The notes beneath the pieces were generated by a model that was not told where the DNA came from, did no database searches, and was given only the letters and a program-made list of their open reading frames with translations. Shown piece after piece: positions 29,304 to 57,316 of a stretch of DNA of 64,000 nucleotides (position 1 is its first letter; every line of letters begins with the position of its first letter). The stretch is taken from assembly GCF_006345805.1 (NCBI RefSeq), contig NC_043017.1, positions 11,656,001-11,720,000 of the forward strand, read 5' to 3'. A program made the position numbers and the translations under genes. This DNA comes from Octopus sinensis (Eukaryota).

Positions 29304-29513
29304 CATATTAATCAATATTTTGTAGAATTTTTTGCCACCAGCGGCCTAGTGGGAAAAAATTAAATAGTCATAGACCATTTTTAAGTTCAACATCACAATC
29401 AAGGAACGGCCATAATAGGCCATTCACCCACTAGAAATAACAGCCAAAGCTTCAACCGCAAAATAACATTAATTCCGTAAACCAGGAGAAAATTAAAAAA
29501 CATTTACCCTGTA

Positions 29514-29620
29514 ATTTCTTATACGATGCACCGTTTCATCTACTGTTTAATGGTAAACTAACCTGATTAAATTAAATCAAGCCAATCTTCCATAGGCCCT
29601 TAGATTCGTCAGTAAGAAAT
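29514..29620 (-). ncRNA. Type I hammerhead ribozyme motif (left arm)
   Basis: Minus strand: atttctta CTGACGA atcta...tagat GAAA cggtgcatcg TA taagaaat. Confidence 0.85.
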
Positions 29621-29940
29621 AGCCAGATCGGAACAGATATTTTCACGAGGCATTCTGTCCCTGCCTCGGCAATATCTGACCTAAAATTTTCAAATCATCG
29701 CACTCGCGCCAAATTTATCGGCAGCAAATAAATATAAGCGCGCCATAAATTAACCAGAAAATCATAATTAATCAATATATTGATTAATTATTTTCTGGTT
29801 AATTCCGTAATGGAATCGGCGGCTTATATTTATTTGCTGCGATAAATTTGGCGCGAGTGCGATGATTTGAAAATTTTAGGTCAGATATTGCCGAGGCAGG
29901 GACAGAAATGCCTCGTGAAAATATCTGTTCCGATCTGGCT

Positions 29941-30048
29941 ATTTCTTACTGACGAATCTAAGGGCCTATGGAAGATTGCTTGATTTAATTTAATCAGGTT
30001 AGTTACCATTAAACAGTAGTAGATGAAACGGTGCATCGTATAAGAAAT
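29941..30048 (+). ncRNA. Type I hammerhead ribozyme motif (right arm)
   Basis: atttctta CTGACGA atcta [~59-nt loop] tagat GAAA cggtgcatcg TA taagaaat; 8-bp stem I; predicted cleavage 3' of GUA at 30040. Confidence 0.85.
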
Positions 30049-30315
30049 TACAGGGTAAATTTTTTAATTTTCTCCTTTTACGGAATTAATGTTATTTTGC
30101 GTTTGAAGCTTTGGCTGTTATTTCTAGTGGGTGAATGGCCATTATTGCCGTTCCTTGATTGTGATGATATACATACATATTATATATATACATACATATT
30201 ATATATAAATATATATAATATATATTATATTATACATATATACTATTATATTATTATATTATATTATATATATTATATATATACATATAATATATATATA
30301 TATATATAATATGAT

Positions 30316-30674: not shown

Positions 30675-30755
30675 GGCTCTGATGAAGCTCTAAGGTATTG
30701 CTGAGGCACTCAACTATGAGTCTACTGCATCTTAGAGCAGAAACAGCTATAAGCT
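30675..30755 (+). ncRNA. Type I hammerhead motif with extended stem II
   Basis: ggct CTGATGA a gctctaag...actcaactatgagt...cttagagc a GAAA cagcta TA agct. Confidence 0.75.
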
Positions 30756-35652: not shown

Positions 35653-36183
35653 TATTTGATATTCAAAGATATCCAATCTCACAGTTGCTTTGATATCACA
35701 ATCAAAACAACGAAATGTAAAGAAAATTAGTTCACATATAATGGAGCATGGGAATTAATTCAGTTCCAATTAAGAATATTTTCTAATCTAGGATCTTAAT
35801 CAGTTTTGGAGTTAGAACTTTCTAAAGAAATTATATGACTCTGACAAATGAAAGATCATGTTTTCAACCTAATTGGATCTCATCAGCTTTTTTTGATCAA
35901 TTGGATGTAATTGGTAATTAACCACTGGCCAACTCTGATTGATTAATTAGGCCTTTAAGAAATGATCAGTCTGTCTCTCCCTCTTTTTTTTTCCAGATTC
36001 AGTGTATTTAAGACTATTTTATCCCAAGCGTCCTTCTTATTTTTGATATGGTAAGGTGTGAAATGAGGGTCATTTTGTTGCTATTTCATCTAGATCAAGT
36101 GATTCTACTGATGTTCCTTCATTTGCTTGAGTGTGTGTATGTATGTGTGTGCATTTATAATTGTGTGTGTGTGTGTGTGTGAA

Positions 36184-41997: not shown

Positions 41998-42206
41998 ATC
42001 ATCGTCATCATCATCATCGTTTAGCATCTGCTTTCCATGCGAGCATGGGTTGGATGGTTCGACTGGGGTCTGGGAAGCCAGAAGGCTGCACCAGGCCCAG
42101 TCTGATCTGGCAATGTTTCTATGACTGGATGCCCTTCCTAACGCCAACCACTCAGTGAGTGTAGTGGGCACTTTTTACTCACGGAGTGGTTGGCGTTAGG
42201 AAGGGC

Positions 42207-42208
<2 letters not shown>
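41998..42208 (-). mobile_element. Family D fragment with a fold-back end
   Basis: atgcccttcctaacgccaaccactcagtgagt...actcacggagtggttggcgttaggaagggcat. Confidence 0.75.
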
Positions 42209-42239
<31 letters not shown>

Positions 42240-42346
42240 GAAATTCAGGGTGAGTACTTGATAATTGTAAGCACCTGTATATACCGTTTGGTGGTGTAGG
42301 TGGTGGAGTAAATTAATCAAAATAAAAACATGATGCCAAGGATTCA

Positions 42347-42424
42347 GCGGTACATATGTTTCGGGCCTTTATTAGACGGATTTATAACAATGCATAATGT
42401 GTGTCTGTGGCCTTCTTCAGCCGC
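42347..42424 (-). ncRNA. Type I hammerhead motif (left arm)
   Basis: Reverse complement of 42571-42648. Confidence 0.75.
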
Positions 42425-42570
42425 ACACAACTACTACCTCAAGGACATGTATTACATCAAAAATTCTACGTTGGGGATGCAAATCCTCTCATTCGCGTAC
42501 GAATGAGAGGATTTGCATCCCCAACGTAGAATTTTTGATGTAATACATGTCCTTGAGGTAGTAGTTGTGT

Positions 42571-42648
42571 GCGGCTGAAGAAGGCCACAGACACACATTA
42601 TGCATTGTTATAAATCCGTCTAATAAAGGCCCGAAACATATGTACCGC
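42571..42648 (+). ncRNA. Type I hammerhead motif (right arm)
   Basis: gcgg CTGAAGA a ggcc...ggcc c GAAA catatg TA ccgc; stem III palindrome ACATATGT; predicted cleavage after 42644. Confidence 0.75.
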
Positions 42649-42684
42649 TGAATCCTTGGCATCATGTTTTTATTATATATATAT

Positions 42685-42825
<141 letters not shown>

Positions 42826-55870: not shown

Positions 55871-56103
55871 AAACAATTGCAGCGTGGAAGGTGTTTGTAA
55901 GCCATTTAAGAAACACACAAAAGCCATTCGATTCACTTCAACATTTAAGTTTAATTTGTCAAAATATTTTTGTCAGTGAACAGGTCGCGGTCTTAAAGCA
56001 ACGAAAATATTTTGACAAATTAAACTTAAATGTTGAAGTGAATCGAACGGCTTTCGTGTGTTTCTTAAATGGCTTACAAACACCTTCCACGCTGCAATTG
56101 TTT
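55871..56103. mobile_element. Inverted repeat (~100-bp arms) around a G3-C8 hammerhead-like core
   Basis: aaacaattgcagcgtggaagg...ttgtcaaaatatttt and its reverse complement; same family as 5681-5837. Confidence 0.9.
55969..56019 (+). ncRNA. Type I hammerhead-like motif, G3-C8 swapped core
   Basis: tttgtca GTGAACA g gtcgc ggtcttaaa gcaac GAAA atat TT tgacaaa; 7-bp stem I; stem III palindrome AATATT. Confidence 0.7.
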
Positions 56104-57316
56104 TCGTTTCAGCACAGGATCTCAGATCAAATCACTTGCTATGCAAGTACATCTCCATAAAAAAGAAACAGTTTTACACCTAAGAAAAGCACTATTTAGA
56201 CTGAGGTAAATATAAGCAAAAAAAAAAAGCAAACAAAAGAAAATCCCAACAAAAAACATGTAATCATAACTGAAATTTCATGTGGTACTTTTCTAAGGTC
56301 CAAAAATATGAAAATATGATATTGAAATATTTCAAGATTAGAAACAAACTGCGTAAGTTCAGTAAAATATCAAAACAAATTTCCGCTACTTTTCCGGTGT
56401 TGGTAGCTTTATTGAAAGCAGCATCTGCGTTAAAGCATGGCAAGCACTTAGAAATATTTTCATGATTGATAACTGAACTGTTGCTAAGCCTTGTAACCAA
56501 AGCAATAACCAATCCCATGCAACCACAGGCAGTGCCAAACTATTCATTTATGTCACTTTGTTCATAAAGATAATGCTGAAGCAATAGTCTACCAAGCAGA
56601 TATCATACATCACTTCAAGTTCCAACATTCACTAAATTTCACAAAAGCAATTCTCAAATCCACTTTTAAGTAGTCCAGTAAAAACATAATGCCACCACTT
56701 TGTCCAGATATGTATGGCAACTAAATGAGAATCATGTAAATTTTAATGTTTCATGGTTATTCCTCAGCTCATAGTAAGAAATACATAAATAGAAAAATCC
56801 TCTGTAGCTTCTGTAAGAAGGAAAATAACAATTATTTTTAAACGGGAAGAATAAGTTAATTAATACGTATCATCCTGGTAATATATTATATTTTACCAAT
56901 TCGGATTAAGATGTTTGATGTAAATTGTTACTCCACCTTGCTAGAAGTTCACCCACTGACAATCAAGATGTAGTTTACTGAAAATCCAAGACTGACAACC
57001 TATTATGGGTGCACTATAAAAAAATTTGAGTTATTATAAATCTTTCATTAGCTGATTACAAAACCATGGATGCTGCTCCTATGTTTATATTGCAGTAACT
57101 CTCATTGACTGTCACCCAGACAGATTTTCTGACCAACAAGTGACTAAATGAAAATCTTCATCCAGTACGAGACATCAACAAAAAAATGTAGGGTCAGATT
57201 CATAAGGCATTGCTGGAGAGCTGAAGATGAAATTGTGAGTGAGGTTCTTTTGTGGAAGCCTGACACAAGGAAGAGCTAGGGGACGACAAGCAAAGACCTA
57301 TGTCAAGTGTATTTAA

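What the first reader, a model, noticed from the sequence alone, without database searches (positions are those of the whole stretch)
42240..42674. Perfect 354-bp hammerhead palindrome: a very young insertion
Seen: identical 175-bp arms, a 4-nt loop, (TA)n flanks, and one arm with an ~80-nt longer 3' tail. The same asymmetry appears at 29.3k and probably 56.1k. Inference: recent activity with a shared mechanism in which cDNA folds back at the 5' end and is copied toward a second priming site. May be polymorphic and cruciform-prone.
Basis: partly seen in the sequence, partly recalled or inferred. Interest (0 to 1): 0.7.

Follow-up and report, generated by a model that had tools for sequence, protein, structure and literature searches.

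The report
Twice-primed Penelope retrotransposon end stub
This 354-base mirror repeat is the truncated end of an abundant Penelope-type jumping gene, present twice head-to-head between TA repeats; the layout is known, and relatives in the same genome suggest it likely formed when each cut DNA strand started copying the element's RNA at a different one of two fixed sites.

Summary
The palindrome is real: 175-nt identical arms, loop CGTA, an 81-nt tail on one arm, (TA)n flanks, and a type I hammerhead motif per arm. It is a 5'-truncated, head-to-head insertion of a Hydra-clade Penelope-like element. The genome holds 1,234 exact matches to a 35-mer of it, and an 842-aa RT/GIY-YIG parent frame whose model best matches telomerase. 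Copies end at two sites, P (~30-40 nt after the predicted ribozyme cut) and D (~110 nt). In 73 position-sampled loci, 42 inverted units pair a shorter-ending arm with a longer-ending one (41 clean P+D); none is D+D or P+P. The P arm is longer in 21, and some D arms do not overlap the P arm, so one folding cDNA cannot explain the family: both target strands were likely primed, one per site, probably on one RNA. This copy's centre (natural 3-bp microhomology) fits fold-back or end-joining equally. 'Very young' is not shown: 17 of 52 arm pairs have no substitution. Read support and polymorphism stayed untested in effect. The layout is published; this scan reported the same reading before on other genomes.

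The parts
42207..42239 (.). (TA)n target tract, left; inferred primer for the tailed (D) arm
42240..42320 (-). 81-nt tail between the proximal (P) and distal (D) 3' end classes; element sequence that continues toward the ORF in tandem copies
42321..42495 (-). left arm: 3'-terminal repeat (pLTR) of the element, sense on the minus strand
42347..42424 (-). type I hammerhead motif, mirror copy (predicted cleavage after 42351)
   Evidence: layout read from the sequence
42496..42502 (.). inversion junction: 4-nt loop CGTA (element sequence of the left arm) plus 3-nt microhomology CGA (42500-42502) that fits either arm
   Evidence: (loose ends behind 42502)
42500..42674 (+). right arm: same pLTR sequence, ending at the proximal (P) site 30 nt after the predicted ribozyme cut
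42571..42648 (+). type I hammerhead motif: stem I GCGG/CCGC, core CTGAAGAA, stem II GGCC/GGCC with 41-nt loop 2, core CGAA, palindromic stem III ACATATGT, predicted cleavage after 42644
   Evidence: compared with the column layout of File S2 of PMC8557442
42675..42715 (.). (TA)n target tract, right; inferred primer for the P arm

Best explanation
This is the 5'-truncated end of a Hydra-clade Penelope-like retrotransposon, present twice head-to-head between (TA)n tracts, and it likely formed in one insertion event in which each cut target strand primed reverse transcription at a different one of two fixed sites on the element RNA. Steps: (1) shown - the family targets (TA)n and has a parent ORF with RT and C-terminal GIY-YIG motifs; (2) inferred - the endonuclease cuts both strands of the TA tract; (3) inferred from end classes - one 3'-OH primes at D (tailed arm), the other at P, most likely on the same RNA molecule, so each site is used once; (4) inferred - both cDNAs stopped about 145 nt upstream of the ribozyme cut and were joined at a natural TCG-TACG-CGA micro-palindrome, either by annealing of the two cDNA ends or by fold-back of the D cDNA and capture by the P cDNA (these give the same sequence); (5) host repair filled in. 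The stub has no coding capacity and no function is indicated; the two hammerheads are passengers of the pLTR.
For: Family: 2,485 first-look candidates, 40 scored, best non-self 99.2% over 260 nt; 607+627 exact matches of a 35-mer versus 0 for the reversed control. Parent: L033 and L048 link the same terminal sequence through a ~2-kb low-complexity 3' UTR to an ORF; L058 holds an 842-aa open frame; 517 homologues at E<=1e-10; invariant YRDD, Y-IG, R, H, N; model pLDDT 85.9, best fold match telomerase TERT, E 9.5e-9. Ends: two classes, P q170-192 and D q253-282. Of 73 loci covering the first 100 listed matches (all on contig C1): 41 loci with 42 inverted units, each a shorter-ending plus a longer-ending arm (41 clean P+D, L144 ends at q203/q245), 0 D+D, 0 P+P; 3 with one arm ending elsewhere; 1 tandem; 28 single-armed (10 D, 18 P). 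P arm longer in 21, D longer in 14, within 5 nt in 7; 15 of 42 have 5' ends within 20 nt versus 2.6 expected, 0 of 20,000 permutations reached it. D arms that share no sequence with the P arm: L157, L158, L068. Arms of one insertion differ by 1.0% while the two subfamilies differ by about 7%, and 24 near-private variants are shared by both arms. PMC11167929 reports two internal RT start sites, extension of both target strands and a predicted dimer.
Against: No biochemistry; all mechanism steps rest on genomic footprints. The 5'-end table was entered by hand from BLAST ends, approximate in low-complexity sequence. Of 32 junctions only 8 show 1-5 nt overlap, 4 are blunt and 20 have apparent inserted bases, some due to reference mismatch, so microhomology annealing is not general. 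In the 56.1k family 2 of 20 loci are D+D+P and L229 carries an inverted copy of 69 nt of flanking DNA, which shows DNA-templated fold-back does occur. PMC11167929 saw no difference in start site between strands in vitro. Pfam-A and PDB sequence searches did not recognise the RT or GIY-YIG domain; the endonuclease call rests on motifs and one homologue's source name. Shared variants could also come from two RNAs of one source locus, from conversion, or from assembly polishing.
Confidence: 0.75

Rival explanations
1. One priming event at D; the cDNA folds back on the 3-bp microhomology, copies itself and is joined to the other TA end at the AT-rich P region by DNA repair, without a second RNA priming.
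For: This copy has exactly that geometry (D arm longer by the loop). P ends lie in an AT-rich stretch with microhomology to (TA)n. L229 in the sister family shows fold-back running into flank DNA.
Against: 18 of 28 single-armed insertions end at P with no D arm found; the P arm is the longer in 21 of 42 units; D arms in L157, L158, L068 share nothing with the P arm. In L229 the run-through strand is still captured by a P-ended piece.
Confidence: 0.12
2. Self-priming on an antisense template creates the head-to-head palindrome (hypothesis of Arkhipova et al. 2013, PMC3846280).
For: Published reading of palindromes at inverted junctions; 15 of 42 units are near-symmetric.
Against: Does not predict one P plus one D end, spacers up to 4.2 kb on either arm, or non-overlapping arms. 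Sense-RNA priming at two sites was shown in vitro for another PLE.
Confidence: 0.06
3. Assembly artefact (fold-back chimeric read or polishing-homogenised arms).
For: No contig bridging the junction was listed in 4 public runs; the 29.3k palindrome has indel-rich arms, so accuracy inside palindromes is uneven.
Against: The two flanks differ, both ends fall in the family's biological end classes, and the same architecture recurs in 42 units with different centres. Artefactual homogenisation of the arms' identity remains possible even if the insertion is real.
Confidence: 0.05
4. Fixed-structure MITE with terminal inverted repeats.
For: Inverted arms in a TA context.
Against: Centres and lengths differ at almost every locus, arms are unequal at the outer ends, and the sequence is the 3' end of an RT-encoding element.
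Confidence: 0.01

Closest known systems
EN+ Penelope-like insertions with an inverted 5'-truncated copy and a one-sided tail (PMC8557442 Fig. 2 legend; PMC3846280 Pen2a_Av)
   Same: Head-to-head pLTR copies, tail at only one end, palindrome at the junction, microsatellite target.
   Different: Tail about 70-80 nt rather than 30-40; here the whole insertion is only the pLTR stub; either arm can bear the tail.
Hydra clade of PLEs (PMC8557442), including Hydra-1_Obim from Octopus bimaculoides
   Same: C-terminal GIY-YIG, DKT, CxCX5C linker, CxxC and CxH around E and N, no CCHH, canonical-type hammerhead, (TA)n targets.
   Different: Unit about 4.75 kb with a ~2-kb low-complexity 3' UTR (published members mostly under 3 kb); RWA instead of RWK; hammerhead sequence differs from the Hydra-1_oBim row of File S2, with a 41-nt loop 2. 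Full sequences were not compared.
Poseidon PLE of Anolis (PAc) in vitro (PMC11167929)
   Same: Two internal RT start sites downstream of the hammerhead that bound the tail; AT-rich targets; both strands extended.
   Different: The paper does not report one-site-per-strand coupling in the two parts of four that I read; different clade.
LINE-1 twin priming (Ostertag and Kazazian 2001; seen only as cited in 10.1101/2024.12.14.628481, details recalled)
   Same: Both target ends prime cDNA, giving an inversion.
   Different: In L1 (recalled) the second primer lands at variable internal sites and the two pieces do not overlap; here the second site is fixed and the pieces usually overlap, giving palindromes.

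Membership tests
EN+ Penelope-like elements | Single ORF with telomerase-related RT | tested here: met
   Parent frame L058:3888-6413, 842 aa; top Foldseek match TERT; not recognised by Pfam-A. The window stub itself has no ORF.
EN+ Penelope-like elements | GIY-YIG endonuclease | tested here: met
   VIY...YIG with invariant Y723, Y736, G738, R746, H750, N820 in 110 aligned sequences; one homologue named 'predicted GIY-YIG superfamily endonuclease'. Motif-level only; no profile hit.
EN+ Penelope-like elements | pLTRs in partial tandem or inverted arrangement, with tail at one end | tested here: met
   Tandem pLTR-ORF-pLTR in L053/L054/L056/L058; inverted copies in L051, L052, L057, L059.
EN+ Penelope-like elements | Type I hammerhead in the pLTR | tested here: met
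   Core, three stems and palindromic stem III present by sequence; Rfam negative; activity not testable.
EN+ Penelope-like elements | Target-site duplication | tested here: inconclusive
   Both flanks are (TA)n, so a duplication cannot be read.
Hydra clade | DKT in place of DKG | tested here: met
   D132-K133-T134; DKT in 99 of 110 aligned sequences.
Hydra clade | CxCX5C linker; CxxC and CxH around E and N; no CCHH | tested here: met
   C702, C704, C710 invariant; C799/C802, C829/H831 conserved; no conserved cysteines between the GIY and YIG motifs.
Hydra clade | N-terminal RWK motif | tested here: inconclusive
   RWA in L058; RWK in 83 of 110 homologues.
Hydra clade | (TA)n insertion preference | tested here: met
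   Nearly all ends run into (TA)n; a few into (CT)n or (GATA)n.
Hydra clade | Short element (<3 kb, 'generally') | tested here: not met
   Unit about 4.75 kb (reference length 4,751). The paper gives this as a tendency, not a criterion.
Hydra clade | Phylogenetic placement with reference Hydra RTs | not tested
MITE | Fixed length with terminal inverted repeats | tested here: not met
   Variable centres and unequal outer ends.
Non-LTR retrozyme | Tandem hammerhead-bearing units without ORF | tested here: not met
   This family is the end of an ORF-bearing element; the 29.3k family, with ~486-bp tandem units, does look like one.

The most novel reading that the evidence does not exclude
Penelope-like elements integrate by obligate asymmetric twin priming: a dimeric RT-endonuclease holds one RNA and assigns one fixed start site to each cut target strand, which would explain in one step the one-sided tail, the head-to-head inversions and the excess of near-perfect palindromes.
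Probability: 0.45. Interest if true: 0.55.

Novelty: new member of a known kind. Interest (0 to 1): 0.3.

Why it matters
The insertion itself is ordinary. The family census matters modestly: how Penelope-like elements make inverted repeats and one-sided tails is stated as unresolved in PMC8557442, and the one-P-plus-one-D rule gives a sharp prediction that an existing in vitro system (PMC11167929) can test. It also means such genomes gain many long short-spacer palindromes, which may be unstable and hard to assemble (inference).

Tried and rejected
Rfam scan: 0 hits. Minimum-free-energy folds did not return the hammerhead. Pfam-A and PDB sequence searches did not name the parent domains; a Pfam scan of the whole alignment was not obtained. 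In run X1 the laid contigs showed only the family base at 42570, not the window's base; contigs cannot show absence. Ribozyme cleavage as the source of 5' ends: 1 of 108 distinct contexts starts near the site, 3 nt upstream (L166); not supported. Arm identity as a clock: rejected. Idea that the abundant repeat at 41999-42178 routinely has the same two-ended structure: 1 head-to-head pair among 50 hits; rejected. Literature: 'Penelope + twin priming + inverted' returned 2 papers whose listings are not about PLE mechanism; other searches were made; the library lacks most subscription papers, so absence from print is not established.

Full report
Observation. The inverted-repeat search gives arms 42321-42495 and 42500-42674, 175 nt, 100% complementary, 4 nt apart (independently). 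The left arm continues for 81 nt to 42240. TA tracts lie at 42207-42239 and 42674-42715. Each arm carries a type I hammerhead motif: stem I GCGG/CCGC, core CTGAAGAA and CGAA, stem II GGCC/GGCC with a 41-nt loop, palindromic stem III and a GTA cleavage triplet. Rfam does not call it and it does not dominate the single-strand fold; passages of PMC4209133 describe such palindromic-helix-III motifs in PLEs as likely dimer-dependent with low activity. The asymmetry at 29.3k and 56.1k is real but belongs to two other families.

Family and parent. The tailed arm has 2,485 first-look candidates in the window's genome, 40 scored, the best non-self at 99.2%. A 35-mer has 607+627 exact matches, the reversed control 0. 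Longer copies run upstream through about 2 kb of low-complexity 3' UTR into an ORF (L033, L048). L058, of the sister subfamily, has pLTR-ORF-pLTR and an 842-aa open frame. Pfam-A and PDB sequence searches did not name it, but it has 517 homologues (the two with an organism name are from the cephalopod Argonauta hians, so the host is likely a mollusc), invariant YRDD and GIY-YIG-type residues, and a confident model (pLDDT 85.9) whose best structural match is telomerase TERT. DKT, CxCX5C, CxxC, CxH, lack of CCHH and (TA)n targeting fit the Hydra clade as described in passages of PMC8557442; its supplement lists an octopus member with a different hammerhead. No tree was built.

Two end classes. 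With q1 = window 42499 on the minus strand, copies end either at P (q170-192) or at D (q253-282). The window copy has D at q260 and P at q179; the predicted ribozyme cut is after q149. To avoid choosing copies by their tail I fetched 73 loci covering the first 100 listed 35-mer matches, all on contig C1. Result: 41 loci hold 42 inverted units, each a shorter-ending plus a longer-ending arm (41 clean P+D; L144 ends at q203 and q245); none is D+D or P+P; 3 loci have a second arm ending elsewhere (L167, L180, L185); 1 is tandem; 28 are single-armed (10 D, 18 P). The automatic classification alone found 36 two-strand loci, 35 P+D and 1 intermediate. Independent choice of ends would give about half mixed pairs (0.5^42 about 2e-13).

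What this says about mechanism. The P arm reaches further 5' in 21 units, the D arm in 14, and 7 are within 5 nt (table entered by hand, approximate in low-complexity sequence; the 3 atypical loci were left out). D arms in L157, L158 and L068 consist of tail only. A single D-primed cDNA that folds back cannot give these. Two primings, one per target strand, give all of them: left flank, antisense D-to-a, sense b-to-P, right flank. The 5' ends are correlated (15 of 42 within 20 nt versus 2.6 expected; 0 of 20,000 permutations), arms never mix the two subfamilies, and 24 near-private variants are shared by both arms among 52 pairs, which favours one RNA template. This agrees with in vitro work on an Anolis PLE showing two internal RT start sites bounding the tail, extension of both strands and a predicted dimer (PMC11167929, parts 1-2 of 4 read), although that paper saw no strand difference in start site. 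PMC3846280 (passages) read junction palindromes as self-priming on an antisense template.

The centre. The element naturally reads TCG-TACG-CGA here, so 42500-42502 fits either arm. Annealing of two identical cDNA ends and fold-back of one followed by capture give the same sequence, so this copy cannot decide. Across 32 junctions 8 have 1-5 nt overlap, 4 are blunt, 20 show apparent insertions, some caused by reference mismatch. In the 56.1k family, L229 has fold-back synthesis that ran through the tail into 69 nt of flank before joining a P-ended piece, so fold-back with capture does occur.

Age and reality. Identical arms are common: 17 of 52 pairs have no substitution, mean 1.0% (38 pairs from the C1 sample plus 14 chosen from earlier, similarity-selected loci). 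Zero of 175 allows up to about 1.7% true divergence (rule of three), and conversion or polishing can equalise arms. The family is young; this copy is not shown to be exceptional. Public-run contigs neither bridged the junction nor showed an empty site, for technical reasons that leave the question open.

Comparison and novelty. Inverted truncated copies with a tail at one end are published (PMC8557442 Fig. 2 legend; PMC3846280). I found no paper tying twin priming to PLEs in the held library, which is incomplete. This scan's unchecked notes report the same object and a similar twin-priming reading in other genomes (consulted after my reading was formed; not counted as support). Also seen: part 1 of 5 of 10.64898/2026.07.22.740005 and passages of 10.1101/2024.12.14.628481. 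Verdict: a new member of a known kind; identity about 0.95, twice-primed mechanism about 0.75, single-RNA dimer model about 0.45; interest 0.3.

Noticed in passing
window 29305-30166: Second hammerhead family, head-to-head with one-sided tail; elsewhere in the genome it forms ~486-bp tandem units with mixed inversions (retrozyme-like); 1,942 first-look candidates. The arms here differ mainly by single-base indels.
   Followed up: partly
window 55871-56160: Third family with the same P/D architecture (offset ~57 nt) and no hammerhead motif found; 1,045 first-look candidates; of 20 loci chosen with a tail-bearing query 13 are P+D, 2 D+D+P, 5 single. Parent not sought.
   Followed up: partly
L229:1207-1761: Palindrome of the 56.1k family whose right side continues through the tail into a 69-nt inverted copy of the left flank (3 mismatches by eye) and then joins a P-ended piece: a footprint of DNA-templated fold-back captured by a second cDNA.
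   Followed up: partly
window 41999-42208: Very abundant SINE-like repeat ending in (GAT)n on the minus strand, with a 32-nt inverted piece at its 5' side, directly left of the TA tract; only 1 such pair among 50 hits. The SINE label is recalled.
   Followed up: partly
window 30679-30743 (+) and 35862-35886 (-): Two further hammerhead-core motifs from the scan.
   Followed up: no
L058 residues 496-549 and 645-697: Two low-confidence, Asn/Arg-rich stretches in the parent protein, absent from most ~710-aa homologues by length; reminiscent of the N-rich inserts described in PMC3846280.
   Followed up: no
L129: Two near-identical P+D palindromic units 1.1 kb apart; local duplication or assembly duplication.
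   Followed up: no
L005 and L022: Copy inserted in non-TA sequence with short flanking repeats (CTAACTTATTTACC-like on both sides), possibly a readable target-site duplication.
   Followed up: no
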